Source: Candidatus Saganbacteria bacterium
Lineage (GTDB): Bacteria; Margulisbacteria; WOR-1; JAKLHX01
Direction of reading: 5' to 3'
Assembly (NCBI GenBank): GCA_026387835.1
Contig: JAPLKZ010000005.1
Coordinates: forward strand, 243,071-275,070
Length of the DNA stretch: 32,000 bases
Part shown: in pieces, positions 3,613 through 30,774 of the stretch
How the letters are laid out: each line of letters begins with the position of its first letter
How positions within the stretch are numbered: the first letter of the stretch is position 1
Program-made: the position numbers and the translations under genes
Notes under the pieces: model-generated
The model's database searches: none
Seen by the model: the letters and a program-made list of their open reading frames with translations, nothing else
What the model was told of the DNA's origin: nothing

Positions 3613-6525
<2,913 letters not shown>

Positions 6526-7718: not shown

Positions 7719-7772
7719 GGTAAGCGGAGGAGTGGCCCCCGATAGGGAATCGGGGCAGGCGAGTGGTTTAAT

Positions 7773-7860
7773 GGAGGGATGGCCGAGTGGTTGATGGCGG
7801 CGGTCTCGAAAACCGTTTCCCGATCTAATCGGGACGCAGGTTCGAATCCTGCTCCCTCCG
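7773..7860 (+). tRNA. tRNA-Ser(CGA)
   Basis: The manually folded cloverleaf has acceptor GGAGGGA/TCCCTCC, anticodon loop CT-CGA-AA, a long class II variable arm, T-loop GGTTCGAATCC and discriminator G. No CCA is encoded. Confidence 0.9.
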
Positions 7861-7881
7861 ATTTTTTATGGGAGGTCATTT

Positions 7882-8364
7882 ATGAAAGTATTGGTAGCCT
7901 ATTATTCGAGGGATGGTGCGACAAGGAAAGCGGCGGAAAGCATCGCGGGCATATTGAAATGCGATATCGAGGAGATAATCGACACCAGGAACAGGAAGGG
8001 CCTGTGGGGTTTCATGACCGGCGGTTTTGACGCGCAGTTCAAAAAACTGACAGTCATACAAGAGATGAAAAAAGATGCTTCGGCTTATGACCTGGTCGTG
8101 ATCGGGACACCTATATGGTCTTCGAAAATGGTCCCGGCAATAAGGACGTATATCATCCAGAACGTAAAAAAAATGAAAAACATAGCAATATTCTGCTGCT
8201 TCGGAGGATACGGAGATAAAAAAACTTTCAATGATATAGAAACACTGTGCGAGAAACGCGCGGCGTCAAAAGCATCGTTCAAGAGAAATGAAGTGAAGAC
8301 CGGCGAGTTCATCCAGAAGGCAAAAGAATTTGCGGGCGAGATACAGAACAGGGAGGCGATCTAA
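7882..8364 (+). CDS. flavodoxin-like protein
   Basis: The N-terminus MKVLVAYYSRDGATRKAAE matches the flavodoxin FMN-binding loop pattern. Later come DLVVIGTPIW and the size expected of a flavodoxin-like fold (160 aa). Confidence 0.85.
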   Translation: MKVLVAYYSRDGATRKAAESIAGILKCDIEEIIDTRNRKGLWGFMTGGFDAQFKKLTVIQEMKKDASAYDLVVIGTPIWSSKMVPAIRTYIIQNVKKMKNIAIFCCFGGYGDKKTFNDIETLCEKRAASKASFKRNEVKTGEFIQKAKEFAGEIQNREAI

Positions 8365-8535
8365 ATGAACAAGTTCACGATGATGAAGGCCGGCGGTCTT
8401 TTAACACTGGTATTGCTCGCATGCACGGCAATTATAGGATATCTCCATCTTGGAATTAAGCTGCATGTGATCTTTGCTATGCTGACACTGGTAGCTGCTT
8501 TATCGCACGTGTTTATTGTTATAAAGAAGGCTTGA
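8365..8535 (+). CDS. small hypothetical membrane protein (56 aa, two predicted TM helices)
   Basis: ATG 8365 lies 1 nt after the flavodoxin stop. The translation is MNKFTMMKAGGLLTLVLLACTAIIGYLHLGIKLHVIFAMLTLVAALSHVFIVIKKA. It falls below the ORF-track length cutoff and has no recognisable family. Confidence 0.4.
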   Translation: MNKFTMMKAGGLLTLVLLACTAIIGYLHLGIKLHVIFAMLTLVAALSHVFIVIKKA

Positions 8536-8603
8536 GTTTGAGTGTGAGTTTTGAGTGTTGAGTTTTTTACTCAAGACTAATTACTCAAACTTAGTACTTA
8601 AAT

Positions 8604-8690
8604 GGAGGGGTGGCCGAGTGGTTGAAGGCGCTCGCCTGGAAAGCGTGTTTACGTGAAAGCGTAACGTGGGTTCGAATCCCACCTCCTCCG
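8604..8690 (+). tRNA. tRNA-Ser(GGA)
   Basis: The cloverleaf has acceptor GGAGGGG/CTCCTCC (one G-U pair), anticodon loop CT-GGA-AA, a long variable arm, T-loop GGTTCGAATCC and discriminator G at 8690. The integrated element starts at its last three bases. Confidence 0.9.
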
Positions 8691-10127
8691 ATGATTGAGA
8701 TATTGAGCGTTTTTAAAAAGCGGCCGCCAGCCGATCCTAGAATCAAATTGTAATTTTTTGCCTTTCAAAATAAAGTTCGAGCCGATATTTTTTAGGAATG
8801 TAAGGATTTCTTCATAATTATTTGTGGCGATAAGATTTTTGGCTTGGCATCCGGATAAAATAATCTCTTTCATCGGTTCGAGCCAATTATTTCCCTTTTG
8901 TTCAAAATCCTTTATCTTTTGTTGTATGTCCAGCTTTTCGTTTAATAGGGCATTCTTTTTTACCTGATATGTTTCCGGGTCTATGCCTTCCCCCTCTATG
9001 AACAGATCAAGCAGTTTATCCATTTTTACTGCAATATCAGATTTCTTTTGTTGCAGATTTTGAACAAAAGATTTTGTTTCTGCTTGAGCAAGCTCTTTTT
9101 CGTTATTGAGGTCTATCAGCATTTTCTTCACCCAGTCATCAGGGATTATCGTTTTGCTGATAGCATCTTTCATCTGATCGATTATGGATTCCTGGCGCGT
9201 ATATTTCTCATCACACTTTTGCTTTTTCTTAGTGCAGCGATAATAGATATGGCCTTTTTGCTTTTCGGCGGTTATCATACAACCACAATTGCCGCATCGC
9301 ATCAGTCCAGAAAAAGCAAATTCATGTTTTCGTTTGCGCTTTTTCTTGCCTCTATTGGCCATTACTTGTTGAGCTTGCTCATATAGAGATTTGGAAATAA
9401 TTGGCTCGTGAGTTCCTTCGTGCATTTCTCCGTTATATCGGAATACTCCATAATAAAAAGGACTTTTTAACATGTGCTGGACACGGGCAGGAACGAGGAT
9501 ATATCCACGATAGCTTTTCATCCCGGCTCTTTCAAGGAATTGCTTTATTGAAAGCAATGTATAGTCACCGGTTGCATACAGCTCAAATGCCTTTCGTATT
9601 AGCGGAGCTTTTTCAGTATCAACTTCAATTCCTTTTGTCTTGTAATTGTTTAGATACCCCAATGGAGCAAATGCAGGCCAAATACCGTTACGCACTTTCT
9701 GCCGATGTCCTCGTTTTACATTCTCGCTTAGATTATCTATGTAATACTTGCTTTGGCCAAAGGCGATATTTAACATGAATTTTCCTTGAGGTGTAGAATC
9801 AAACCAGAAGGTCGGGAACTTGAGATCTTTCAGCCTGCCCGTGTCCAGCAAGTAAATAATTTTGCCTCCATCTATTGAATTGCGTGCTAATCTGTCCGGA
9901 TGCCAAGCCAAAACGCCACAAGCTTCACCTTTTTCAATCCGATCAAGCATTTCATTGAATATTTCTCTGCCGGGTTCTTTGGCAGTTTTTGCCTCGCAGA
10001 GCGAGGCGACGATTTCAAGTTTTTCTTTGGCGGCAAATTCTTTTAGCTCAACCAATTGTGCCTCAATGGATAATATCTGTCTTTCTTCCGAATCAGTTGA
10101 TTTCCGGGCATAAAGGAAATACTTCAT
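8649..10127 (-). CDS. large serine recombinase
   Basis: It has a resolvase-type N-terminal catalytic domain (FLYARKSTDSEERQILSIEAQ...WHPDRLARN), a recombinase domain and a zinc-ribbon (CGNCG...YYRCTKKKQKC), followed by a long helical C-terminal region. A GGAGG-rich RBS precedes ATG 10127. The last 14 codons are antisense to the tRNA-Ser(GGA) 3' half. Confidence 0.93.
   Translation of the reverse strand: MKYFLYARKSTDSEERQILSIEAQLVELKEFAAKEKLEIVASLCEAKTAKEPGREIFNEMLDRIEKGEACGVLAWHPDRLARNSIDGGKIIYLLDTGRLKDLKFPTFWFDSTPQGKFMLNIAFGQSKYYIDNLSENVKRGHRQKVRNGIWPAFAPLGYLNNYKTKGIEVDTEKAPLIRKAFELYATGDYTLLSIKQFLERAGMKSYRGYILVPARVQHMLKSPFYYGVFRYNGEMHEGTHEPIISKSLYEQAQQVMANRGKKKRKRKHEFAFSGLMRCGNCGCMITAEKQKGHIYYRCTKKKQKCDEKYTRQESIIDQMKDAISKTIIPDDWVKKMLIDLNNEKELAQAETKSFVQNLQQKKSDIAVKMDKLLDLFIEGEGIDPETYQVKKNALLNEKLDIQQKIKDFEQKGNNWLEPMKEIILSGCQAKNLIATNNYEEILTFLKNIGSNFILKGKKLQFDSRIGWRPLFKNAQYLNHRRRWDSNPRYAFT
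8688..8762. repeat. IR-A left copy (inverted repeat flanking the recombinase gene)
   Basis: The reverse complement of 10220-10287 matches this region. There are identical blocks of 14 nt and 29 nt (GTTTTTAAAAAGCGGCCGCCAGCCGATCC) plus 17 of 18 nt. They are interrupted by a 7-nt substituted patch and a 7-nt indel. Confidence 0.9.
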
Positions 10128-10157
10128 AATCCCTCCTCCTTTCAATATAGATATCGG

Positions 10158-10178
10158 TCAAAAAGCCCGCTTTTGGCC
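10158..10178. repeat. 21-nt inverted repeat P' (partner 10441-10461)
   Basis: TCAAAAAGCCCGCTTTTGGCC is the exact reverse complement of 10441-10461. It lies just upstream of the recombinase RBS, and its partner lies upstream of the XRE gene. It is hairpin-prone itself. Confidence 0.85.
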
Positions 10179-10219
10179 AGCTTCATTTGGAGTATTTATT
10201 GCTCCAAATGGAGCTGTAA

Positions 10220-10287
10220 GGCAAAAAATTCCAATTTGGATCGGCTGGCGGCCGCTTTTTAAAAACGGCGGAAATCTCAATCATCGG
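10220..10287. repeat. IR-A right copy (degenerate plus-orientation copy of the recombinase 3' end)
   Basis: See IR-A left. It is contiguous with IR-B left and shares the 4 nt TCGG (10284-10287) with it. Confidence 0.9.
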
Positions 10288-10395
10288 GAACTATATAAAA
10301 ATATCAGAACCGAGATGACCGCCGATCCTTAGGGCGGCGGTTGCCGCCGTCCAACCGCCGCCCCGTTCCCGCTGCTGGGCGACCTTTTCGGATTG
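10284..10395. repeat. IR-B left copy (112-nt inverted repeat)
   Basis: The reverse complement matches 14958-15069 at 110 of 112 positions by manual alignment. It contains a G+C-rich 12-bp stem (GGGCGGCGGTTG/CAACCGCCGCCC). Confidence 0.92.
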
Positions 10396-10440
10396 AAAAA
10401 CTGCCAAAGAACCCAAAAATATCGGCTCAAACTTTATTTT
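10396..10440 (+). pseudogene. internally deleted fragments of a second serine recombinase gene copy
   Basis: 10396-10414 is identical (19/19) to recombinase codons 47-52 (KTAKEP; reverse complement of 9972-9990). 10415-10440 matches 25 of 26 nt of codons 446-454 (KNIGSNFIL; reverse complement of 8767-8792). Both lie in the orientation opposite to the intact gene. Confidence 0.75.
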
Positions 10441-10461
10441 GGCCAAAAGCGGGCTTTTTGA
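10441..10461. repeat. 21-nt inverted repeat P (partner 10158-10178)
   Basis: GGCCAAAAGCGGGCTTTTTGA is the exact reverse complement of 10158-10178. Confidence 0.85.
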
Positions 10462-10539
10462 ATTCCGGATTGTCCCCGACCACCCACCCCTGAATAAATT
10501 GATAAATAACGCAATTATTGTTAGTATTATATTGAAAGG

Positions 10540-10560
10540 TAGCATATCAATAATATGCTA
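10540..10560. promoter_or_regulatory. palindrome upstream of the XRE gene (candidate operator)
   Basis: TAGCATA-N7-TATGCTA lies 17 nt upstream of ATG 10577. The preceding TATATTGAAAGG is shared with the region upstream of the recombinase gene. Confidence 0.35.
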
Positions 10561-10576
10561 TCAATTAAATGATATA

Positions 10577-10783
10577 ATGTCAATAAATAATAATATAGGA
10601 AAGAATATCAAACGTTTACGCACAAAATTAGGCTTCTCGCAAGAGACCTTGGCTGTAAAATCAGATGTAAAATACACGACTCTTACTAAGATTGAGAGTA
10701 ATGTTATAAAGAAACCCTCAGTATTGCTAATGGCAAAAATCGCAAATATATTAAATGTTCAAATTGAGGAGCTAATAAAATAA
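10577..10783 (+). CDS. XRE-family helix-turn-helix transcriptional regulator (68 aa)
   Basis: IGKNIKRLRTKLGFSQETLAVKSDVKYTTLTKIESNVIKKPSVLLMAKIANILNVQIEELI is a canonical HTH_3/XRE pattern. The ORF-track start at 10439 reads through the recombinase fragments and is unlikely to be real. Confidence 0.85.
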   Translation: MSINNNIGKNIKRLRTKLGFSQETLAVKSDVKYTTLTKIESNVIKKPSVLLMAKIANILNVQIEELIK

Positions 10784-10787
10784 CCAT

Positions 10788-11483
10788 ATGAAATATGAAT
10801 TGGAAATTTATAATAGAAATGTGCCTGATGAGCATCTTCTTGATGATTTAAAAGCAGTTGCTAAGAAATTAGGCAGGTCTTCTGTGACTCATGAGGAATA
10901 TAATAAAAATGGGAAGTATAATAGTACAACTTATATGCGAAGATTTGGTGGTTGGTTTAAATCGTTAGAAATGGCAGGGCTCCAAAAAACAAGAACGCCA
11001 GCTAATGTTTCCGAAGATGACTTGTTTAACAATATTGAAGAGATTTGGATAAAACTCGGCAGACAACCACGATATCAAGAAGTTAGAACCCCATTATCAA
11101 AATATTGTGCAGGAACATACGAAAACAGATTTGGAACATGGCGGAAGGCACTAGAAGCTTTCATAGATTATATTAATAAGGATCAAGATAAATGTTCAAA
11201 TGAAATATCTCAAAAAGAGATAAAATCCGGAGAGACTTCTAAATCTAATAAACACATAAAGATGACAAAAAGAGAAATATCGGATAGATTGCGTTTCCGG
11301 ATATTATTAAGAGATGGTTTTACGTGCAGAAAATGTGGCCGCAGTCCGCTGAAGAATCCAGGAATCGAATTGCATGTTGATCATATCCTTCCTTGGTCCA
11401 AAGGTGGCGAGACAACGATTGAGAATCTCGAGACGAAATGCGAAAAATGCAATCTGGGTAAAGGGAATGCATTTGATGTTTGA
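10788..11483 (+). CDS. HNH endonuclease with two N-terminal homing-endonuclease-associated repeats
   Basis: The motif Y..RFGxW..xLE.A occurs twice (YMRRFGGWFKSLEMAG and YENRFGTWRKALEAF). The C-terminal HNH motif is CRKCGR...HVDHILPWSKGGETTIENLETKCEKCN. Confidence 0.9.
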   Translation: MKYELEIYNRNVPDEHLLDDLKAVAKKLGRSSVTHEEYNKNGKYNSTTYMRRFGGWFKSLEMAGLQKTRTPANVSEDDLFNNIEEIWIKLGRQPRYQEVRTPLSKYCAGTYENRFGTWRKALEAFIDYINKDQDKCSNEISQKEIKSGETSKSNKHIKMTKREISDRLRFRILLRDGFTCRKCGRSPLKNPGIELHVDHILPWSKGGETTIENLETKCEKCNLGKGNAFDV

Positions 11484-11537
11484 TTCTTATATAGAAATGG
11501 GTAATGTCTTAGAGCAGTTAATAAGGATTGTAATAAC

Positions 11538-12449
11538 ATGGCAAATATAACATGCAAAGCGAATAATCTAAGCGGGAAAAGATGCAAAAGGAATCCTCTG
11601 AAATCTGGGTTTTGTCCAACTCATGACCCGGAAATATTAAATAAAAAAGAAGAACAGAAGAAGGCTGATGAAAAAAAGCGACAAAAAATAGATGAATTAT
11701 TATCTATTGTCACAAAAACATGTAAGGCAAATGGTTGGGGCTGGGAAGTTGATGCATTTGATGATAATGATTTTTCTTCAGCCATTGTTAATGTTCATAA
11801 ATATGTTTCAGGTCAAGACATTTCAGCATTGTTTCACATTAATATATCAAAAGACAATATTCAGTATAGGATTGAGAAAACATCATTTTACGGATACGGC
11901 GTTGAGGCATTAATGAGTTCAATATCAAGTGCATTTGAAAGAAAAGGATTTGTTAGTCCAAAATCACTAGGAGGTGAACCAAATAAAAAGAATTCCTTAT
12001 TAGATGTTTTGCCGATAATATTTGAACGATTTCATGTTGTGGCAACGCAGCTGTCAAATCGTTATAATAAGAGACCTACATTGACAATTTCTGATGAATA
12101 TGACGTACAGGATCTTTTACATGCTCTCCTTCGAGTTCATTTTACCGATGTTAGGCCAGAGGAGTATACTCCCAGTTATGCGGGATCATCTTCAAGAATA
12201 GATTTCCTTCTCAAAGATGAGAAGACGCTTCTTGAGGTTAAATATGCAACAACTTCCTTAAAGGACAAAGCGATTGGAGAACAGTTAATAATAGATGTTG
12301 AGAAGTATAAAAGACACACCGATTGTGAAAACTTGTTTTGTTTCATATATAATCCAGGTTTTTCTATTAAGAATCCAAGCGGGCTAGAAAAAGATTTGTC
12401 AGGAAAAAATGGTAATATTAATGTTAAAGTATTCGTTTACCCAAAATAA
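11538..12449 (+). CDS. hypothetical protein with Cys/His-rich N-terminus and C-terminal PD-(D/E)xK-like nuclease motif
   Basis: The C-terminal SRIDFLLKDEKTLLEVKY fits the D...(E/D)xK core of Hjc/YraN-like nucleases, preceded by an acidic PEE. The N-terminal CKANNLSGKRCKRNPLKSGFCPTH could bind metal. The family is not recognised with certainty. Confidence 0.6.
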   Translation: MANITCKANNLSGKRCKRNPLKSGFCPTHDPEILNKKEEQKKADEKKRQKIDELLSIVTKTCKANGWGWEVDAFDDNDFSSAIVNVHKYVSGQDISALFHINISKDNIQYRIEKTSFYGYGVEALMSSISSAFERKGFVSPKSLGGEPNKKNSLLDVLPIIFERFHVVATQLSNRYNKRPTLTISDEYDVQDLLHALLRVHFTDVRPEEYTPSYAGSSSRIDFLLKDEKTLLEVKYATTSLKDKAIGEQLIIDVEKYKRHTDCENLFCFIYNPGFSIKNPSGLEKDLSGKNGNINVKVFVYPK

Positions 12450-12457
12450 AATAGAAA

Positions 12458-12515
12458 CTAAAAGAATTTGCCGCCAAAGCTCTTGGCGTTTCAATAGAGG
12501 AGTTAATGAAATAGC
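12458..12515 (+). repeat. cassette junction repeat R1 (22-nt core plus XRE-tail remnant)
   Basis: 12458-12479 CTAAAAGAATTTGCCGCCAAAG is identical to the reverse complement of 10025-10046 inside the recombinase gene. The remainder reads ALGVSIEELMK-stop, resembling the tail of the XRE gene. ATG of the next gene is at 12516. Confidence 0.85.
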
Positions 12516-13346
12516 ATGAAAAATAAAACACTCGCAATTTTCGGTATAGGAACGTATATCTTATCTGTCTTGTTGTCTGCTACAGATTCGGGAGGCAATT
12601 CTGTTGCGCCAATTACATTAATCTCAATATCGGGAATAGCAACCGCGGTATTTATCATTATGGCGATAGTCCGCCTCTGGAAGGAAGAAAAAGGCGCATC
12701 AATAACACTTGCATCTTCGGCTATTATTCTTTTTATATTGTCAGTAGTTCAGGGTTTTGCCTCACCTTCGTACGGAAGTCCACTCATCATTATGTTAAAC
12801 ATAACCAAAGTATTTTATTTCATCGCATTTATTTGGACGATAATAGTACTTTATAGAAGTAAAGTAATTAATTCGCACATGATTACCAAAATAGATAATT
12901 ATCACTTAAACCAACCCGTAAATGAAGCGCCGGATTTGAAGGAATACACAGCCGAAGAATATCAAATGTTTGAGATGGCTGGATATAAAAGGATATCTGA
13001 AAATGAAAAAATCTTTAGAGGCGGAATTGTTAAATTCGCTTATATTCCGTGGGGCGAAACAACTATCGGAACTATAGATAATAAAATCTACAAAATATCG
13101 TTACAATTAATCACCCAAAACGAGATCTTAGCAAAAGAAGTGTTTAAAACCACCCTCAATTACTTAATAGAACAAATGGACAAATATAGTGAACATCCAT
13201 TTCTATCTAATAAATATATTTGGGATGCACCTGAGGGGAATATCATTTATGAGCAAATAAATAGATTTAATCAGCATTGCATAAACATTTTTATTACTTC
13301 AAGCTCTATAAGAGATCAAGTGAAGAATTATATTTCAAAACACTAG
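12516..13346 (+). CDS. hypothetical membrane protein (N-terminal multi-TM region, C-terminal soluble domain)
   Basis: The 276-aa ORF has hydrophobic helices in the first 110 aa or so and no recognisable motifs. It starts directly after R1. Confidence 0.6.
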   Translation: MKNKTLAIFGIGTYILSVLLSATDSGGNSVAPITLISISGIATAVFIIMAIVRLWKEEKGASITLASSAIILFILSVVQGFASPSYGSPLIIMLNITKVFYFIAFIWTIIVLYRSKVINSHMITKIDNYHLNQPVNEAPDLKEYTAEEYQMFEMAGYKRISENEKIFRGGIVKFAYIPWGETTIGTIDNKIYKISLQLITQNEILAKEVFKTTLNYLIEQMDKYSEHPFLSNKYIWDAPEGNIIYEQINRFNQHCINIFITSSSIRDQVKNYISKH

Positions 13347-13357
13347 GGGGAAAATAT

Positions 13358-13885
13358 ATGATTATTAAAGTTATTGTTGAAATCATTTTAGGATTTATTT
13401 TGTTGGGAGTTAGTTCTGCTTTTTGGAATTGTGTTAAATCTCCGAAATTCTTAGCGAATGTGCTGGGTGATTATGACGAATTAAAAAGGTTTTTCCATCA
13501 TCTAGGGAAAGAAAATATTAAACACGAAAGTGAAGTTGTTGATCCGAAAATTGGATTTTCGGCAAATATCGTTTTATGGATTAAAGCGAGCCTATCGGCG
13601 CTGGACAAAACACGCAACATGTTGCTGGTTGTAATAATAGGAATCTTTATCGGAAGTTATTTTCTAGGAAATATTTTCCTCTTAATCAATGCTGTTTTAT
13701 TCTTTATAATGGCTTTCCCAAGCATTTCTGCTGCTGCTAAAAATAATATAATTACTGATATTCATACGATAATGCTTAATGTCTACAAATGGAACAAAGT
13801 AAATCATGCTGAATGTGAGAGGTTTTGTAACTTAGAGCAGCCAAGGATTATGAAAAATATTTATAGAGTAGTAACTGAAGAATAA
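13358..13885 (+). CDS. hypothetical membrane protein (175 aa)
   Basis: ATG 13358 is preceded by the RBS AGGGGG. Several hydrophobic helices are present. The ORF-track start at 13277 overlaps the previous gene and is unlikely to be real. Confidence 0.55.
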   Translation: MIIKVIVEIILGFILLGVSSAFWNCVKSPKFLANVLGDYDELKRFFHHLGKENIKHESEVVDPKIGFSANIVLWIKASLSALDKTRNMLLVVIIGIFIGSYFLGNIFLLINAVLFFIMAFPSISAAAKNNIITDIHTIMLNVYKWNKVNHAECERFCNLEQPRIMKNIYRVVTEE

Positions 13886-13942
13886 AAGGATTTGCCGCCA
13901 AAGCGTAGGGCGTTTCAATTGGAGATTTAATAAAATAAATTT
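13882..13942 (+). repeat. cassette junction repeat R2 (core plus decayed XRE-tail remnant)
   Basis: ATAAAAGGATTTGCCGCCAAAG has two mismatches to the core. It is followed by a tail reading A-stop-GVSIGDLIK-stop. I align it with R1 at roughly 80% identity by eye. The TAA of the upstream gene lies inside the core. ATG of the next gene is at 13943. Confidence 0.8.
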
Positions 13943-14926
13943 ATGTCATTATTTAAGAAAAAATTAACCGAGCAAGAAGCCGCCTCTCATTTTGTCCTTT
14001 ATATTACAAAAGAGGCACAAAGTGCATGGCCTGCCATTTATAAAAGTCTTCAAGATTCTTTTAAAGATAAATTTGTTGTAGAAGACGAAACAATGGCAGC
14101 ATTTGATTTGGCTCTTGCCGCAATCGCCCAAGATTTACAGGCGGTAAATAATTTATTTCCAAAAGACCAAGCAGAAAGAATTGAAAAATGGGTTTTAAAA
14201 TGCATTAATACTGAAGATTGGGGCGAATATGCGGTTGGCGAAGTGAAAAAATATGGGGAAAGATTTCAAAAGGATATTCAAAATATCAATGCCGGTGGCG
14301 ATCCTTTGAGCGCCATCCCAACTCGCTTACTCCAGCAATGGCTAGGAAAAAATATTCAAGGCTTTGATGTAGAAATGAACGGAAAGAAAACCGGAATTAT
14401 AAGCCCCTTTCTTCTTATGATGGTTTCCAGTATGCTTGCCGCCTTTCTTGGAACTTGGAAAAAACTAAAGGATGATTTTAATCTTGTTGAGGGCGACATA
14501 CCTTTTGATGAAAAACCAAGTGGCTTGAAAGATTATGTACCCGAGCCGGATGAAAAAAAGCCTAACGGAACTATTCAATATTATGATGAAAACGGGAACC
14601 TAAAAGAGAAATGGTTGCCACCGGAACAAATAAATGAACTTTTAAAGAAAGACGGCGCAAAGCGACTTTATAAAGTACTCGTTAAGGGACATTGGGACGG
14701 TGTTAAGGAAGCCCTTTGGGAACTTTCTGATGATACTGCTCAAAAATATGTTGATGAAAATGGTTATGCTTATGCAATTTGCACTTACGACACAGGAGAA
14801 TTAAAATATTACTTTATTTCAAGAAGATTATGGGAGAAACAAGAGCAAATGGGAAAAATCTTGATGGATCAAAATTTATCACCGGAACAACAGCAAGAAG
14901 CAGTTAGAAAATTAATGGATGACTAA
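13943..14926 (+). CDS. hypothetical protein (327 aa)
   Basis: This is a long ORF with an ATG start directly after R2. It has no recognisable domain. Its TAA stop lies inside the R3 core. Confidence 0.6.
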   Translation: MSLFKKKLTEQEAASHFVLYITKEAQSAWPAIYKSLQDSFKDKFVVEDETMAAFDLALAAIAQDLQAVNNLFPKDQAERIEKWVLKCINTEDWGEYAVGEVKKYGERFQKDIQNINAGGDPLSAIPTRLLQQWLGKNIQGFDVEMNGKKTGIISPFLLMMVSSMLAAFLGTWKKLKDDFNLVEGDIPFDEKPSGLKDYVPEPDEKKPNGTIQYYDENGNLKEKWLPPEQINELLKKDGAKRLYKVLVKGHWDGVKEALWELSDDTAQKYVDENGYAYAICTYDTGELKYYFISRRLWEKQEQMGKILMDQNLSPEQQQEAVRKLMDD

Positions 14927-14957
14927 AATTTCCGCCAAAGAAAAACTTGAAATCGTC
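14923..14957 (+). repeat. junction repeat R3 (fragment of recombinase codons 28-40, plus orientation)
   Basis: CTAAAATTTCCGCCAAAGAAAAACTTGAAATCGTC matches the reverse complement of 10008-10046 apart from two small deletions (4 nt in total). It abuts IR-B right. Confidence 0.8.
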
Positions 14958-15069
14958 CAATCCGAAAAGGTCGCCCAGCAGCGGGAACGGGGCGGCGGTT
15001 GGATGGCGGCAACCGCCGCCCTAAGGATCGGCGGTCAGCTCGGTTCTGATATTTTTATATAGTTCCCGA
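14958..15069. repeat. IR-B right copy (112-nt inverted repeat; right terminus of the element)
   Basis: It matches the reverse complement of 10284-10395 at 110 of 112 positions and ends in CCGA at 15066-15069. Confidence 0.92.
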
Positions 15070-15070
15070 A

Positions 15071-16219
15071 TTATTTCTTCCGCAGCACCCACATCATCTC
15101 TTTCACTCTTATATTCCTGTTCCTAAGGTTCCTTGACCCTCGGTAAGTATTATATTCGCTTGACATAAGCTTCCATTTTCCGTGTTTGGACAGGATGGAC
15201 TTGAAAGTCTTAACGGGGATTATCCCTTCATCATTGTAAGAGATAACGATGAATTTAGCTCTGGTGTTTTTCAGAAGTTGGTCCATTGCCTCTTCGGCAA
15301 GATGCCTTTTGTTATAAACGGACTTGTTCCAATCCCGCGTGATCCCGCTGACGCCGTCCTGGATATAAAAGTTTTTATAGTCATTTATAAGGTTCAGCAT
15401 GAAATAGTTTGACCCGTAAGGATGCTGGTTATAGGGCGGGTCAAGATAGACAAGATCGAACTCCGGAAGATTTGTGTCTTTAACAAGCCGATTAATATCT
15501 TTTTTTAGTACAACGACCTTACACTCGATATCAGAGAATACCGGCACTTCAAGGGTTATTTCCTTTTTTATCCTTGAGAGGGCATTCTCGCCTTTGCCTC
15601 CGAAATGGCCGATGCCGTTCTTCTTGTGGAACCCTTTGAAGACGCCGGAAGTGTTCGTGTGTATAGATGCTTCCACCAGAAGCGATGCAAGACAGAAGAC
15701 GCGGTATTTTTCGGGAACGTCTTTGTCGATGAGTTTCCTAATATTATCGATGACCTGAGCGTTCTTGCTCGTATAAAAAACCCGCTCTCCGGATTTAATA
15801 TCCATATCATCCTTTGGCGAATAATTGAGGCTGATGAAACCTGGCTTATTTATGGATAATTTACGATCATTTAGAATGTCTATGTAATATTCAAGCTTTT
15901 TAACATTTATCTCTGATCTGTTTGCAAGATAACATCTGTTTAGCGTAAAACTGTAATTCTCAAGGTCATTGGCATACAGGACCTTTGCGTAATATTTCAA
16001 AAGCCTCGAAACTGAGCCGCTTCCCGCGAAACCGTCAAGGATAACAAGTTTTTCTTTGTTAAGTATTTTCTTAACTTTAGCAAACCCCTTATTAAGAAAG
16101 GAAAGGAGCGACCTTTTATTGCCGAGATAAGTTATCAGCTGAGAAGAAAAATATGGGGCATCTAAGTCAAGGTATTCCGGGGCATTGCCGGAAAATAAAG
16201 ATCGTTGTATGTGTGCCAT
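15071..16219 (-). CDS. N6-adenine DNA methyltransferase, alpha group (D12/Dam-like class)
   Basis: It has a YLGNKR-type N-terminal motif, motif I DGFAGSGS, a long intervening region, then motif IV DPPY (VYLDPPYN). It is 382 aa. Its stop codon lies 1 nt from the right end of the element. Confidence 0.9.
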   Translation of the reverse strand: MAHIQRSLFSGNAPEYLDLDAPYFSSQLITYLGNKRSLLSFLNKGFAKVKKILNKEKLVILDGFAGSGSVSRLLKYYAKVLYANDLENYSFTLNRCYLANRSEINVKKLEYYIDILNDRKLSINKPGFISLNYSPKDDMDIKSGERVFYTSKNAQVIDNIRKLIDKDVPEKYRVFCLASLLVEASIHTNTSGVFKGFHKKNGIGHFGGKGENALSRIKKEITLEVPVFSDIECKVVVLKKDINRLVKDTNLPEFDLVYLDPPYNQHPYGSNYFMLNLINDYKNFYIQDGVSGITRDWNKSVYNKRHLAEEAMDQLLKNTRAKFIVISYNDEGIIPVKTFKSILSKHGKWKLMSSEYNTYRGSRNLRNRNIRVKEMMWVLRKK

Positions 16220-29520: not shown

Positions 29521-30774
29521 ATGCAGACAACTAGGACTTCTTTTGCAGCAGCGTTAAGGACGAGCAGCAGGATCGATGTCGCCGCCAGGATAACTTCGGC
29601 AAGACTTTATTCACCTAATGGTGATTATTGGAGATCCCGTGCCAGTATTCCGGGAGCTGTCCGTGCATTAAATGAAAAAATAATAGATAAGAAAATGGTC
29701 GCGGCTATATTTGCTGATGACAAAATGCCCGTTGCCAGGGCTGCGGATATATTAGCTAGAGTAGAAATGGCTGCGGGAATTTTGGCTGATGTCAAAATGT
29801 CTATTAGCAGGGCTGCGGGTATATTAACTGATGACAAAATGCCTTTAGAGAAAGCTGCGGGTATATTAACTGATGACAAAATGCCTTTAGAGAAAGCTGC
29901 GGGTATATTAGCTGATGACGGTATATTAACTGATGACAAAATGCCTTTAGAGAAAGCTGCGGGTATATTAGCTGATGACAAAATAGATTTAATGAAAGTT
30001 GCGGCTATATTTGCTGATGACAAAATGCCCGTTGCCAGGGCTGCAGGAATATTTGCTGATGGCAAAATGCCTGTTGCCAGGGTTGCGGGAATATTAGCTT
30101 ATCTCAAAATACCTGCAAGCAGGGCTGCGGGTATATTAGCTGATGACAAAATGCCTGCTAGCAGGGCTGCGGGAATATTAGCGCATGATCTTATTAATCC
30201 TTGGAGGGCTGCGGGTATATTAACTGATGACAAAATGCCTGTTGCCAGGGTTGCAGGAATATTAGCTGATTACAAAATGCCTGTTGCCAGGGCTGCGGAT
30301 ATATTAGCTGATGACAAAATATCTTTAGAGAAGGCTGCGGGTATATTAGCTGATGATAAAATGAGTCTTTGCAGGGCTGCGGATATATTAGCTGATTACA
30401 AAATGCCTGTTGCCAGGGCTGCGGATATATTAGCTGATGACAAAATATCTTTAGAGAAGGCTGCGGGTATATTAGCGCATGATCTTATTAATCTTTGGAA
30501 GGCTGCGGGGATATTGGCTGACGGGAAAATGCCTTTAGATAGGGCCGTGAGAATATTAGCATGTGATCTTATTAATGTTCAGAAAGCTGCGGGTATATTA
30601 GGTGGCGGCATAATGCCTATTACCAGGGCCGCGGATATATTAGCCGATGAAAAAATCTCTTTAGATAAGGTTGCAGGCATAATCGGGGAAATGCCGGACG
30701 TAAACGCAATTTACATCTTAGCTGAAATGGGAGACGAACTCGTAAGACGAATTATTGAGAAGATAGGAAAATAA
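29521..30774 (+). CDS. tandem-repeat protein: about 23 copies of a 14-aa unit (AAGILADDKMPxxR) between unique N- and C-termini
   Basis: The 417-aa ORF is preceded by the RBS AGGGAG. The period is 42 nt and in frame throughout. Its N-terminal 50 aa or so are conserved with the next gene. Confidence 0.8.
   Translation: MQTTRTSFAAALRTSSRIDVAARITSARLYSPNGDYWRSRASIPGAVRALNEKIIDKKMVAAIFADDKMPVARAADILARVEMAAGILADVKMSISRAAGILTDDKMPLEKAAGILTDDKMPLEKAAGILADDGILTDDKMPLEKAAGILADDKIDLMKVAAIFADDKMPVARAAGIFADGKMPVARVAGILAYLKIPASRAAGILADDKMPASRAAGILAHDLINPWRAAGILTDDKMPVARVAGILADYKMPVARAADILADDKISLEKAAGILADDKMSLCRAADILADYKMPVARAADILADDKISLEKAAGILAHDLINLWKAAGILADGKMPLDRAVRILACDLINVQKAAGILGGGIMPITRAADILADEKISLDKVAGIIGEMPDVNAIYILAEMGDELVRRIIEKIGK
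29692..30690 (+). repeat. 42-nt coding tandem repeat array
   Basis: Units of GCTGCGGGTATATTARCTGATGACAAAATGCCTNNNNNNARR recur. Two consecutive perfect 42-nt copies span 29812-29895, and a third near-perfect unit carrying an 18-nt internal duplication extends to 29955. A 90-nt perfect duplication links 30261-30350 and 30387-30476. Confidence 0.9.

What the first reader, a model, noticed from the sequence alone, without database searches (positions are those of the whole stretch)
10025..14957. Cargo genes are arranged as cassettes separated by a junction repeat whose 22-nt core also lies inside the recombinase gene
CTAAAAGAATTTGCCGCCAAAG occurs at four places. It is at 12458-12479 (exact), at 13882-13903 (2 mismatches) and at 14923-14940 (small deletions). 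The fourth copy is on the opposite strand at 10025-10046, inside the recombinase ORF (codons 28-34, LKEFAAK). In R1 and R2 the core is followed by 33-39 nt that read as the C-terminal tail of an XRE protein (FAAKALGVSIEELMK-stop; R2 carries an internal stop). That tail resembles the end of the intact XRE gene (…IANILNVQIEELIK-stop, 10730-10783). The next gene's ATG follows within 1-6 nt, the same spacing as XRE to HNH. In R2 and R3 the TAA of the upstream cargo gene sits inside the core (cTAAaag). So three cargo modules (HNH plus PD-(D/E)xK; two membrane proteins; the 327-aa protein) each sit behind a complete or vestigial XRE 3' end, bounded by the same core. This looks like stepwise module capture at a defined site, conceptually like integron or recombinase-associated immunity-gene arrays, but next to a serine recombinase. 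Because the copy in the recombinase gene is inverted relative to the others, recombination between them would invert the intervening DNA. It would also truncate the recombinase after codon 34 (predicted …LKEFAAK-ALGVSIEELMK-stop), a possible self-limiting switch.
Basis: partly seen in the sequence, partly recalled or inferred. Interest (0 to 1): 0.8.

Follow-up and report, generated by a model that had tools for sequence, protein, structure and literature searches.

The report
Serine-recombinase island carrying defence-gene cassettes
The repeated 22-base "core" is real; it is the conserved end-piece of exchangeable defence-gene units on a widespread mobile island that a large serine recombinase inserts at the end of a serine tRNA gene, and the two internal copies are most likely scars where neighbouring units fused.

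Summary
In detail: four core copies, none expected by chance. Window 8,692-15,069 is a low-GC island inserted at the 3' end of tRNA-Ser(gga). It belongs to a large-serine-recombinase (LSR) family with over 500 relatives, mostly Patescibacteria. The layout is fixed: tRNA | recombinase unit between ~87-nt inverted repeats (Y) | cargo unit between ~110-nt inverted repeats (T). The cargo unit starts with exact copies of three recombinase-unit segments (B, c, d), a promoter and an XRE gene. It ends with segment A, which is recombinase codons 28-40 and includes the core, set against T. T carries a tRNA-like motif 5 nt farther from the junction than in the tRNA (15/15 loci), the geometry known for LSR attP versus attB. 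Integration therefore happens at the tRNA end, not at the core. Cargo is mostly restriction-modification and other defence genes, and it turns over while the chassis stays 88-95% identical across phyla. "Core + XRE-tail" joints recur in other genomes with different genes on either side. I read them as fusion scars (short homology GCCAAAG), not LSR crossover sites. Recombinase genes truncated exactly at the core exist in five relatives.

The parts
8603..8691 (+). tRNA-Ser(gga); its 3' end is the left arm of the integration target (attB). The attL junction is at 8691|8692 (cctcctCCG|ATGATTGAG).
   Evidence: ARAGORN and Rfam tRNA at 57.6 bits. In nearly every locus scanned (55 loci in all) a convergent tRNA, mostly tRNA-Ser, abuts the recombinase 3' end. 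Junction comparison.
8688..8767 (-). Y: the last ~80 nt of the recombinase reading frame, with a terminator-like hairpin. It is one arm of the inverted repeat around the recombinase unit and the P' side of attL.
   Evidence: I2 50 nt 90%, I6 24 nt 92%. Terminator-like site 8733-8721 on the - strand. A Y pair was found in 43 of 56 loci with at least 200 nt upstream, mostly 98-100% identical.
8766..8792 (-). Segment c (recombinase 3' coding region), copied at 10415-10441.
   Evidence: I4, 27 nt, 96%. The equivalent pair is present in 32 of 43 loci.
8652..10127 (-). Large serine recombinase gene, 492 aa from ATG 10127. The catalytic-serine motif YARKSTDSEERQ is present.
   Evidence: Pfam Resolvase 2e-19, Recombinase 6e-17, Zn_ribbon_recom 1e-9. 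Nearest NCBIfam models are XisF, CcrB and CcrA, far below their cut-offs. 534 relatives in GTDB genomes.
9972..9990 (-). Segment B (recombinase codons ~46-52), copied at 10396-10414.
   Evidence: I10, 19 nt, 100%. 20-nt 100% pairs in many loci.
9991..10007 (-). hp: a 17-nt palindrome, GCCTCGC-TCT-GCGAGGC, inside the recombinase gene (codons ASLCEA). It sits exactly where the cargo unit's copies of A and B are separated by repeat T.
   Evidence: Read. Across 42 distinct sequences, 97.3% of cells are paired and 3 of 7 pairs show compensatory changes (14 cells). 0 of 500 shuffles scored as high, and slid controls gave 23-50%.
10008..10046 (-).
   Evidence: I3, I7, I9. This is the peak of third-codon-position conservation in the gene: 0.92 at codons 33-40 (0.79-0.92 across codons 25-56) against a typical 0.5-0.7. 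The DNA is nearly invariant across loci whose proteins are 54-76% identical.
10158..10179 (-). Segment d, just upstream of the recombinase ribosome-binding site; copied at 10440-10461.
   Evidence: I8, 22 nt, 100%. Equivalent pair in 24 of 43 loci.
10215..10287 (+). Y': the inverted copy of Y upstream of the recombinase gene. With T' it forms an internal, inverted copy of the attP-like junction (agttcCCG|ATGATTGAG read on the - strand).
   Evidence: I2, I6. Junction alignment.
10284..10395 (-). T' (proximal copy of the 112-nt repeat). It comprises a GC-rich hairpin plus a tRNA-3'-end-like tip (GGTTCTGAT...TTCCCG).
   Evidence: I1, 98%. A T pair was found in 28 of 37 loci with at least 2 kb upstream. 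Terminator-like site. The GTTC motif lies 5 nt farther from the junction than in the tRNA in 15 of 15 loci; in the window the distances are 27 and 22 nt, read.
10396..10461 (+). B'-c'-d': a contiguous tile of exact copies of recombinase-unit segments B, c and d at the start of the cargo unit.
   Evidence: I10, I4, I8. The same tiling is seen in about 20 loci.
10499..10560 (+). Cargo-operon promoter (TTGATA-17-TAGTAT) and a palindromic operator-like site, TAGCATAT...ATATGCTA (10540-10560).
   Evidence: The same arrangement is present upstream of the XRE genes of L050 and L018.
10577..10783 (+). XRE-family regulator, the first gene of the cargo unit.
   Evidence: Pfam HTH_3 1.6e-13. A 65-84 aa ORF occupies the same first position in 23 of 28 units.
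10788..12449 (+). Module 1 cargo: an HNH nuclease with HNH_repeat (10788-11483) and a DpnII/MboI-type restriction endonuclease (11538-12449).
   Evidence: Pfam HNH_repeat 3.6e-30, HNH 3.4e-13, DpnII-MboI 2.2e-52.
12458..12513 (+). R1 joint: the core (12458-12479) fused to the last 11 codons of an XRE gene (ALGVSIEELMK*). The tail carries the Shine-Dalgarno GAGGAG of the next gene.
   Evidence: D2. 90% identity to the L050 XRE 3' end. The same kind of joint occurs in L111-L115.
12516..13885 (+). Module 2 cargo: a 276-aa protein and a 175-aa predicted membrane protein.
   Evidence: ORFs. No significant Pfam match: only a sub-threshold PspB hit for the 276-aa protein and none for the 175-aa protein. 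The exact 276-aa protein is on record from a Candidatus Saganbacteria MAG.
13882..13937 (+). R2 joint: the core with 2 mismatches fused to a decayed XRE tail (A*GVSIGDLIK*).
   Evidence: D2, 82% to R1.
13943..14926 (+). Module 3 cargo: a 327-aa protein of unknown function.
   Evidence: No Pfam or NCBIfam match. The whole XRE-to-327-aa block is colinear in independent Logan assemblies.
14923..14957 (+).
   Evidence: I3. Among the 21 loci where both A' and the distal T were detected, A' lies 0-4 nt from the inner end of T in 17 (sequences).
14958..15069 (+). T (distal copy): the cargo-operon terminator hairpin plus the P arm. The attR junction is at 15069|15070 (agttcCCG|AATTATTTC).
   Evidence: I1. 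Terminator-like site 15024-15047. Junctions. Logan contigs join the methyltransferase gene, T and A' as in the window.

Best explanation
Window 8,692-15,069 is a genomic island integrated at the 3' end of tRNA-Ser(gga) by its own large serine recombinase. It belongs to a widespread, apparently undescribed family with a fixed two-unit chassis.

Unit 1 is the recombinase gene between inverted repeats Y'/Y. Unit 2 is a cargo operon between inverted repeats T'/T. The cargo operon always opens with copies of recombinase-unit segments B, c and d, a promoter and an XRE regulator. It always closes with a copy of segment A (recombinase codons 28-40), whose first 16-22 nt are the 'core'.

The attachment sites are at the tRNA end. 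attL is tRNA|Y', attR is T|chromosome, and a complete attP-like T|Y' junction sits inverted between the two units. New islands integrate repeatedly at the same tRNA, older recombinase units decay, and cargo units pile up. The cargo between XRE and A' is exchanged rapidly and consists mostly of defence genes.

R1 and R2 are joints left when three such cargo units were fused. Everything from the middle of one unit's A' (...GCCGCCAAAG) to the matching GCCAAAG in the next unit's XRE gene (codons A-K-A-L-G-V) was deleted. The lost part included the near-palindromic junction, T then inverted T, that separates tandem units. The XRE tail survives because it holds the next gene's ribosome-binding site.

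What is shown: the architecture, the site geometry, cargo turnover, tandem arrays, and recurrence of the joints. What is inferred: the deletion mechanism, and that the recombinase acts at T|Y' and the tRNA end.
For: - **Conserved chassis.** The repeat pairs and tiled copies appear in dozens of loci from many phyla.
- **tRNA target.** A tRNA, mostly tRNA-Ser, abuts the recombinase 3' end in nearly all loci.
- **Shared junctions.** All three junction types break at ..CCG(CCA). The T tip co-varies with the target tRNA; L063 targets tRNA-Tyr and has GCACCA.
- **attP/attB geometry.** The GTTC motif is exactly 5 nt farther from the junction in T than in the tRNA in 15 of 15 loci. This matches the published attP/attB zinc-ribbon motif shift (PMC3783163).
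- **Chassis moves, cargo turns over.** The chassis is 88-95% identical between unrelated genomes while cargo and flanks are unrelated. One such pair (94% over ~2.1 kb) is a Patescibacteria MAG and Schleiferia thermophila DSM 21410.
- **Minimal unit.** L050 has the order T'-B-c-d-promoter-XRE-one gene-A'-T.
- **Defence cargo.** Units carry restriction-modification types I-III, HNH, Mrr, AAA_15/21 and ThsA.
- **Tandem islands.** L001 and L011 hold tandem islands with a collapsed older recombinase unit.
- **Variable breakpoints.** The L036 internal joint keeps two thirds of the XRE gene and more of A', so breakpoints vary.
- **Foreign tails.** The window's XRE tails resemble foreign XRE genes more than its own.
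- **Shared short homology.** XRE genes carry ..ATTGCCAAAGCG.. where A' has GCCGCCAAAGAA.
- **Less-perfect repeats here.** The window's T pair (98%) and Y pair (82-92%) are less perfect than the 100% common elsewhere, as expected if its arms come from different islands.
Against: - The same core|ALGV breakpoint recurs in at least four lineages with different tail alleles. This needs either a strong microhomology preference or a site-specific process.
- Small insertions in A' in other loci also fall right after GCCGCCAAAG, so this position may be special.
- No unfused ancestor of the window's modules 2 and 3 was found.
- No empty site, circular form or read-level evidence of integration was available for this strain.
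- The model does not explain three things: why A, B, c and d are kept identical to the recombinase unit, why A-hp-B is conserved at synonymous sites, and why an inverted attP copy is kept.
Confidence: 0.6

Rival explanations
1. The core is itself an active crossover site. Cassettes of the form [XRE tail-genes-core] are excised and inserted by site-specific recombination between cores, integron-like. Recombination with the inverted core in the recombinase gene flips the DNA and switches the recombinase off.
For: Joints with an identical breakpoint recur with different genes on both sides. L112 and L115 share the XRE gene, the joint and the last cassette but differ in the first cassette, and L113 has two joints. 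Breakpoints cluster after GCCGCCAAAG. The core and its surroundings are conserved at synonymous sites in the recombinase gene. Recombinase genes truncated at the core were found in five relatives, four of them with a co-directional cargo gene upstream.
Against: Copies share only 16-22 nt. The left flank is arbitrary, the right flank is either the A tail or the unrelated XRE tail, and there is no dyad symmetry. An LSR needs about 40-50 bp with two half-sites (PMC3783163). The LSR attP/attB signature is found elsewhere. L036 has a joint at another breakpoint. In the GTDB sample, most units with an identifiable A' have a single, terminal core. None of the intact loci with an identifiable A' has a flipped unit. 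The truncated loci have lost their inverted-repeat pairs, one (L052) has an in-frame stop, and L018 lacks the reciprocal product.
Confidence: 0.15
2. The copies of A, B, c and d, and the palindrome hp, are binding or architectural sites. They could be accessory or enhancer-like sites, or autoregulatory operators for the recombinase or a host protein. They would tie the ends of the cargo unit to the recombinase gene, and the internal joints R1 and R2 would be incidental. This complements the best explanation rather than excluding it.
For: The four segments are kept 96-100% identical to their counterparts in many loci and co-vary with them. Examples are the L020 variant AAACTGAAAATCGC and the L060/L061 variant ATTGTT. 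Synonymous-site conservation peaks at A-hp-B. hp shows compensatory substitutions. From my own knowledge: the Fis-bound recombinational enhancer of Hin, Gin and Cin lies inside the 5' coding region of the invertase gene.
Against: The more distant subfamily (about 52% identity) keeps both inverted-repeat pairs but has no hp, and no copies of A, B, c or d were detected for it, so these are not essential to the basic system. No protein-binding data exist. Short inverted repeats can also be homogenised by gene conversion.
Confidence: 0.2
3. The repeats are assembly artefacts of a metagenome-assembled genome, such as chimeric joins at repeats.
For: The window comes from a MAG. Contigs of this family often break next to the repeats.
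Against: The same architecture is present in an isolate genome (Schleiferia thermophila DSM 21410, L004), in a record titled as a complete genome (AP024682.1, L074), and in dozens of independent assemblies. Logan contigs from more than ten runs reproduce the window's joins, including methyltransferase-T-A'.
Confidence: 0.02

Closest known systems
Staphylococcal cassette chromosome (SCC/SCCmec) composite islands moved by Ccr large serine recombinases
   Same: A large serine recombinase integrates an element at the 3' end of one conserved gene. Elements pile up in tandem at that site. Recombinase-less cassettes sit next to recombinase-bearing ones. Cargo is enriched in anti-phage defence (PMC11470126). 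The window's recombinase gives its best NCBIfam hits to XisF, CcrB and CcrA.
   Different: The target is a tRNA 3' end, not rlmH. The recombinase scores far below the Ccr cut-offs. This family has long, usually near-perfect inverted repeats around each unit, an internal inverted attP copy, copies of recombinase-gene segments at the cargo-unit ends, and an XRE gene leading each unit. To my knowledge none of these is described for SCC.
Phage-type large serine integrases (Listeria A118/LI, phiC31, Bxb1) and their attP/attB sites
   Same: The domain set is the same: Resolvase, Recombinase and zinc ribbon. A sequence motif lies 5 bp closer to the crossover in the host site than in the element site (compared with PMC3783163). 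Hybrid junctions share a few bases at the crossover.
   Different: The family is almost absent from viral contigs, with one 46% hit. The element keeps a second, inverted attP-like copy. The probable central dinucleotide for tRNA-Ser targets is the palindromic CG, which would give no polarity; this is an inference.
Integrons (IntI tyrosine recombinase, attI, attC)
   Same: There are arrays of short promoter-less gene cassettes separated by a recurring junction element, transcribed away from the recombinase gene, with fast cassette turnover.
   Different: The recombinase is a serine enzyme, not a tyrosine one. The junction is a chimera of two chassis parts rather than a folded attC. No attI equivalent was identified. 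Each unit has its own promoter and regulator.
SSV-type archaeal integrases, whose attP lies inside the integrase gene
   Same: A functional DNA element lies inside the recombinase coding sequence. The cargo unit looks like a recombinase gene opened at that point, with B...c at one end and A at the other. The review PMC8371274 surfaced; the description of SSV rests on my own knowledge.
   Different: Those are tyrosine recombinases, and integration there splits the active gene at a tRNA target. Here the active gene is intact. The break point abuts the inner ends of repeat T, not the crossover, and half of hp is not retained at either junction.
Controller (C) protein-regulated restriction-modification operons
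   Same: A small XRE/HTH_3 gene with a palindromic operator sits immediately upstream of a restriction endonuclease gene.
   Different: Here the XRE gene leads cargo of many unrelated kinds and is part of the mobile chassis.

Membership tests
Large serine recombinase (LSR) | N-terminal resolvase catalytic domain with a serine nucleophile, plus a recombinase domain and a zinc-ribbon domain | tested here: met
   Pfam PF00239 2e-19, PF07508 6e-17 and PF13408 1e-9, all above gathering scores. The motif YARKSTDSEERQ is present at residues 5-16.
LSR attP x attB integration system | Element and host sites share a motif that lies 5 bp closer to the crossover in attB than in attP | tested here: met
   The GTTC motif is 5 nt farther from the shared junction block in T than in the tRNA in 15 of 15 loci. 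In the window the distances are 27 and 22 nt. The rule is from PMC3783163.
LSR attP x attB integration system | Hybrid attL and attR flank the element; an empty attB and a circular attP exist in relatives | tested here: inconclusive
   Junction logic fits: tRNA|Y', T|outside, and an intact T|Y' copy. No empty site or proven circle was found. L010 has a 51-nt terminal direct repeat that might indicate a circle. All Logan contigs of this strain are occupied.
LSR attP x attB integration system | Recombination activity of the enzyme on these sites | not testable with these tools
   Needs expression or purification of the recombinase and substrate assays.
Integron | IntI tyrosine recombinase | tested here: not met
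   The only recombinase in the island is a serine recombinase.
Integron | attC sites: imperfect palindromes of about 60-120 nt closing each cassette | tested here: not met
   The joints are the 16-22-nt core plus 33-nt XRE coding tails. Only a 4-6-bp inverted repeat (CGCCAA..TTGGCG) is present.
SCC-type cassette chromosome | Ccr-family recombinase | tested here: not met
   CcrB 82.9 bits against a cut-off of 900; CcrA 76.4 against 700.
SCC-type cassette chromosome | Tandem accumulation of recombinase-bearing and recombinase-less cassettes at one chromosomal site | tested here: met
   L001 and L011 hold tandem islands, and L001 has a collapsed older recombinase unit.
Site-specific DNA inversion switch (Hin/Gin/Cin, shufflons, invertons) | Inverted repeats flank a segment found in both orientations in populations or relatives | tested here: not met
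   Inverted repeats are present. In every intact-recombinase locus where an end segment A' could be identified, the unit has the same orientation (A' inverted relative to the recombinase). Only degenerate loci with a truncated recombinase show the other orientation. No read-level data were available.
C-protein-controlled restriction-modification system | Small HTH regulator with an operator upstream of the R gene, plus a cognate methyltransferase | tested here: inconclusive
   The XRE gene, a palindrome and a DpnII-type REase are in the island. The only candidate methyltransferase (D12 class, 15071-16219) lies just outside attR on the other strand.

The most novel reading that the evidence does not exclude
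The family is a two-component, self-templating cassette platform run by a large serine recombinase. Each unit carries an uninterrupted copy of the junction that circularising the other unit's interior would create: c|d in the cargo unit, A-hp-B in the recombinase gene. The island also keeps a spare, inverted attP. A linear or single-stranded copy (Y'...T) could then fold, Y' on Y and T' on T, so that its two ends meet on the internal copy and rebuild a double-stranded attP. Cargo units and the recombinase unit could be excised, loaded or exchanged separately. The ultraconserved intragenic A-hp-B element would couple recombinase integrity to cassette rearrangement. If so, this would be a serine-recombinase counterpart of the integron, adapted to transfer between distant phyla.
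Probability: 0.12. Interest if true: 0.85.

Novelty: new variant of a known kind. Interest (0 to 1): 0.66.

Why it matters
- **A widespread vehicle for defence genes.** It defines a cross-phylum carrier for restriction-modification and other defence genes in Patescibacteria and neighbours. These lineages largely lack CRISPR, and their mobile elements are poorly known.
- **Ready-made attachment-site pairs.** It offers many natural LSR attP/attB pairs that target tRNA 3' ends, which could be useful for genome engineering.
- **Unexplained design features.** An ultraconserved palindrome-bearing DNA element sits inside the recombinase gene. Exact copies of recombinase-unit segments sit at the cargo ends. 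An inverted spare attP is retained. Together these hint at a regulatory or mechanistic layer not described for serine integrases.

Tried and rejected
- **Exact-protein look-up of the recombinase:** not on record.
- **Rfam scan of 8400-15300:** only the tRNA matched; nothing for T, Y or hp.
- **Literature searches:** five searches found no description of this architecture.
- **Viral contigs:** a single distant hit, so this is not a typical prophage integrase.
- **Logan contigs of the same strain:** I looked for an empty site or a flipped state. All agree with the window. Contig breaks at the repeats and at A-hp-B are explained by k-mer sharing, not by rearrangement.
- **Metagenome scan for the window-specific T sequence:** 0 hits.
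- **Homologues of the 276-aa cargo protein:** I hoped to find module 2 as an independent unit. The two homologues of its C-terminal half whose contigs I examined lie in ordinary chromosomal contexts.
- **hp as the LSR crossover:** rejected, because neither A'|T nor T'|B' keeps half of hp.
- **T as chromosomal target DNA:** rejected, because T is homologous across unrelated genomes and travels with the chassis.
- **A, hp and B as two half-sites of an LSR site:** rejected, because there is no dyad symmetry. The shared GCCAAAG reflects repeated Ala-Lys codons.
- **A single event producing the truncated loci:** a direct A x A' inversion alone does not explain L018. It needs a second deletion, since the chromosome abuts the T tip directly.
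- **An RNA antisense role for A', B', c' and d':** rejected, because the cargo-strand copies have the same sense as the recombinase mRNA.

Full report
**Observation**

The 22-nt core is exact at 10025-10046 (- strand) and at 12458-12479 (+). It has 2 mismatches at 13882-13903. Shuffled sequence gave no match. The gapped fourth copy is longer than reported: 14926-14957 matches recombinase nt 10008-10039 at 94%. R1 and R2 are 82% identical over 55 nt. They read as the last 11 codons of an XRE gene. The R1 tail matches the XRE 3' end of another island (L050) at 90% and the R2 tail at 87%, against 68% and 74% to the window's own XRE end.

The repeat search shows a nested set of inverted repeats:
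- A 112-nt pair, here called T (10284-10395 / 14958-15069, 98%), brackets all the cargo.
- An ~80-nt pair, Y (8688-8767 / 10215-10287), brackets the recombinase gene.
- A contiguous tile at 10396-10461 consists of exact copies of three separate recombinase-unit segments. These are B (9972-9990, coding), c (8766-8792, 3' coding) and d (10158-10179, just upstream of the ribosome-binding site).

In the recombinase gene, A and B are separated only by a 17-nt palindrome, hp (9991-10007). In the cargo unit, A' abuts the inner end of the distal T and B' abuts the inner end of the proximal T. Conversely, c and d are contiguous in the cargo unit but lie at opposite ends of the recombinase unit.

The recombinase 3' end overlaps tRNA-Ser(gga) 8603-8691. 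The stretch from 8.7 to 15.1 kb has 32-40% GC, against 45-50% in most of the rest of the window.

**Genes**

The recombinase has Resolvase, Recombinase and zinc-ribbon domains. It is nearest to XisF, CcrB and CcrA but far below their family cut-offs. The cargo comprises:
- an XRE regulator;
- an HNH nuclease;
- a DpnII/MboI-type restriction endonuclease;
- three proteins without significant family matches.

A D12-class adenine methyltransferase lies just outside the distal T. The exact 276-aa cargo protein is on record from a Candidatus Saganbacteria MAG.

**The architecture is a family trait**

A scan of GTDB genomes found 534 relatives among the first 600 candidates. They are mostly Patescibacteria, but also Thermodesulfovibrio, Nitrospira, Omnitrophota, Schleiferia and others. 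Self-comparison of the 80 loci kept shows the same layout again and again.

Counts:

| Feature | Found in | Loci considered |
|---|---|---|
| Y pair | 43 of 56 | at least 200 nt upstream |
| T pair | 28 of 37 | at least 2 kb upstream |
| A' copy | 24 of 37 | at least 2 kb upstream |

Where both A' and the distal T were detected (21 loci), A' lies 0-4 nt from the inner end of T in 17. The repeat pairs are mostly 98-100% identical within a locus but differ between loci.

A more distant subfamily (~52% identity) keeps two longer repeat pairs (134 nt and 225-314 nt). It has no hp, and no copies of A, B, c or d were detected for it.

The recombinase 3' end abuts a convergent tRNA gene in nearly every locus scanned. 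It is mostly tRNA-Ser of any anticodon, sometimes Trp, Tyr, Gln or Arg.

**Where integration happens**

Three junction types were aligned in 16 loci: tRNA 3' end|Y', proximal T|Y', and distal T|outside. All break at ..CCG(CCA). The T tip follows the target; L063 targets tRNA-Tyr, and both it and its T end in GCACCA.

T carries a T-loop-like GGTTCGAAT motif. It lies exactly 5 nt farther from the junction than the real T-loop does in the tRNA, in 15 of 15 loci. In the window the distances are 27 and 22 nt.

This is the published hallmark of serine-integrase sites: the zinc-ribbon motif is shifted 5 bp toward the centre in attB relative to attP (PMC3783163). I therefore assign:
- attL = tRNA|Y' at 8691|8692;
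- attR = T|chromosome at 15069|15070;
- an intact attP-like T|Y' junction, inverted, between the two units at 10284-10287.

The crossover is probably the two bases before CCA. That is CG for tRNA-Ser, a palindromic pair that would give no polarity. This last point is inference.

T and Y also hold terminator-like hairpins for the cargo operon and the recombinase gene. In a circular form the two transcription units would converge on one T.Y' module and diverge from the other.

**Cargo units are exchangeable**

The minimal unit (L050) reads T'-B-c-d-promoter/operator-XRE-one methyltransferase gene-TAA-core/A-T. In 23 of 28 units the first ORF is a 65-84-aa protein in the XRE position, followed 1-5 nt later by tightly packed genes that end at A'.

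Pairs of loci from unrelated genomes share 2.0-2.2 kb of chassis at 88-95% identity, but share neither cargo nor chromosomal flanks. L001 (a Patescibacteria MAG) and L004 (the isolate Schleiferia thermophila DSM 21410) are 94% identical over about 2.1 kb.

The 54 cargo proteins scanned are rich in defence functions:
- type I, II and III restriction-modification components;
- TdeIII, Eco57I and Mrr nucleases;
- HNH nucleases;
- AAA_15/AAA_21 ATPases;
- a ThsA Macro domain, HD domains and SWI2/SNF2 helicases.

**Islands pile up and decay**

In L011, one island abuts the T tip of a second island that sits at the tRNA. This is as expected if a newcomer integrates at the same tRNA and pushes the older island outward.

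L001 is a tandem array. Between two cargo units lies T1 | a collapsed Y'~Y remnant | inverted T2. That is an older recombinase unit reduced to its hairpin. The next XRE gene there has lost its promoter and first codons.

**What R1 and R2 are**

Internal cores are uncommon among the GTDB loci. The window has two, L036 has one, and L074 has a further decayed XRE fragment.

The L036 joint reads: gene stop, then the core, then two small hairpins, then GAAAAACTTGAAAT, fused to XRE codon 25 onward. The fused XRE part is a direct repeat of that unit's own XRE gene. Its breakpoints differ from the window's.

A metagenome scan for the window-type joint (core followed by codons A-L-G-V) found five more contigs. 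Each reads: cargo stop, core, 11-codon XRE tail (ALGVPMEDLVK*, ALGVKPRDLIS* and others), next gene.
- L112 and L115 carry the full chassis. They share the XRE gene, the joint and the last cassette, but have different genes between XRE and the joint.
- L113 has two joints 960 nt apart with other genes between them.

XRE genes read ..ATTGCCAAAGCGTTAGG.. where A' reads GCCGCCAAAGAAAAAC, so the two share GCCAAAG. The XRE tail also holds the Shine-Dalgarno sequence of the next gene.

I therefore read the joints as fusions of adjacent units. The deletion runs from mid-A' to the matching heptamer in the next XRE gene. It removes the near-palindromic junction (T then inverted T) between tandem units. 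From my own knowledge, long palindromes are deletion-prone between flanking short repeats. Selection then keeps the ribosome-binding site.

A site-specific exchange at the core is not excluded, but it fits an LSR poorly. Only 16-22 nt are shared, there is no dyad symmetry, the left flanks are arbitrary, and there are two unrelated right flanks.

**The copy inside the recombinase gene**

The DNA of codons 25-56 is the most conserved part of the gene at third codon positions: 0.92 at codons 33-40 (0.79-0.92 across codons 25-56), against a typical 0.5-0.7. It is almost invariant across loci whose proteins are 54-76% identical.

The palindrome hp keeps pairing through compensatory changes (GCTTCGC/GCGAAGC, GCTTCCT/AGGAAGC, GCCTCCT/AGGAGGC). 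Of all cells, 97.3% are paired, 3 of 7 pairs show double changes, and 0 of 500 shuffles scored as high.

A' co-varies with the A of its own locus. The identity between the recombinase gene and the cargo-unit ends is therefore maintained, either by function or by gene conversion. I cannot say which.

Five relatives have recombinase genes that begin at the core (L018, L034, L038, L048, L052). Four have a co-directional cargo gene directly upstream; L038 has too little upstream sequence to tell. In L018, L052 and L048 the order is inverted T-B-c-d-(XRE)-cargo-A-hp-B-recombinase body. That is the product expected from flipping the cargo unit and then deleting between direct repeats, or from an A x A' inversion followed by a T-T deletion.

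These loci have lost their repeat pairs, and L052 has an in-frame stop. They look like dead ends, not one state of a reversible switch. Every intact locus with an identifiable A' has the unit in the same orientation.

**Comparison with known systems**

The nearest working analogue is the SCC/SCCmec composite island. There, Ccr serine recombinases integrate elements at one gene's 3' end and mobilise tandem, recombinase-less, defence-rich cassettes (PMC11470126). Membership fails on the recombinase family.

The site geometry matches phage-type serine integrases, but the family is nearly absent from viral contigs.

The integron analogy holds only at the level of arrays and turnover.

The five literature searches I ran found no description of the double inverted repeats, the inverted spare attP, or the recombinase-segment copies.

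**Limits**

No read-level data, empty site or proven circle were available. L010, a 4.6-kb contig with a 51-nt terminal direct repeat, may be a circle. The reason for the inverted attP copy and for the conserved A, B, c, d and hp elements remains unexplained. The fold-back or 'self-splinting' idea and the accessory-site idea are hypotheses only.

**Verdict**

It is wrong about the capture site, and a reversible switch is not shown. The finding opens onto a widespread island family with unusual, apparently undescribed design features. Interest 0.66; a new variant of a known kind.

Noticed in passing
window 15071-16219 (- strand) and 11538-12449 (+ strand): A D12-class N6-adenine methyltransferase ends 1 nt outside the island's attR junction. 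The only restriction enzyme of matching type, DpnII/MboI-like, lies inside the island. The R and M genes of a possible GATC system are therefore split by the island boundary. The methyltransferase region also has lowish GC (0.42), so it may be a remnant of an older element at the same tRNA.
   Followed up: partly
window 7772-7861: A second tRNA-Ser (cga) lies 740 nt upstream of the occupied tRNA-Ser(gga), in the same orientation. Its 3' end is similar (..CTCCCTCCG|ATTTTTT) and it is apparently unoccupied. It is a potential second target for the island's internal attP copy.
   Followed up: no
window 8837-8862/9888-9913, 8879-8894/9393-9408, 9475-9491/9834-9850: Three nested intragenic inverted repeats of 16-26 nt lie inside the recombinase gene. 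Two of them (8837-8862/9888-9913 and 8879-8894/9393-9408) have arms in further stretches of raised synonymous-site conservation (codons 241-256 and 409-456). This may indicate long-range structure in the recombinase mRNA or DNA.
   Followed up: partly
window 29684-30665 and beyond, to about 31900: A long array of 42-nt (14-codon) tandem repeats, about 18 copies at 71-88% identity with higher-order periods of 102 and 144 nt. It is presumably a repetitive protein and is unrelated to the island.
   Followed up: partly
L010 (JAOAFZ010000010.1), 1-51 and 4586-4636: This 4.6-kb contig holds a recombinase unit plus a cargo unit and has a 51-nt terminal direct repeat, as a circular molecule would. After Y comes a second T-like tip rather than a tRNA.
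   Followed up: partly
L001 4143-4217 and 792-860; L004 ~4750-4826; L013 ~8360-8430; L041 ~5530-5600; L021, L024, L030, L074, L023: In many loci the terminal A' copy is split right after GCCGCCAA(A)G by a ~37-42-nt insert of two small hairpins. One hairpin type has the stem CAATCCG/CGGATTA, the same as the inner ends of repeat T, as if a T-bounded unit had collapsed there. Its origin is unknown.
   Followed up: partly
L001 (BPJC01000001.1) vs L004 (NZ_QPJS01000004.1): The recombinase unit plus chassis is 94% identical over about 2.1 kb between a Patescibacteria MAG and the cultured Bacteroidota isolate Schleiferia thermophila DSM 21410. This suggests recent cross-phylum transfer and offers a cultivable host for experiments.
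   Followed up: partly
window 12516-13346: The 276-aa cargo protein looks like a fusion. Its C-terminal half matches ~154-aa proteins; the two such homologues whose contigs were examined sit in ordinary chromosomal contexts. Its N-terminal half matches the start of ~339-aa proteins.
   Followed up: partly
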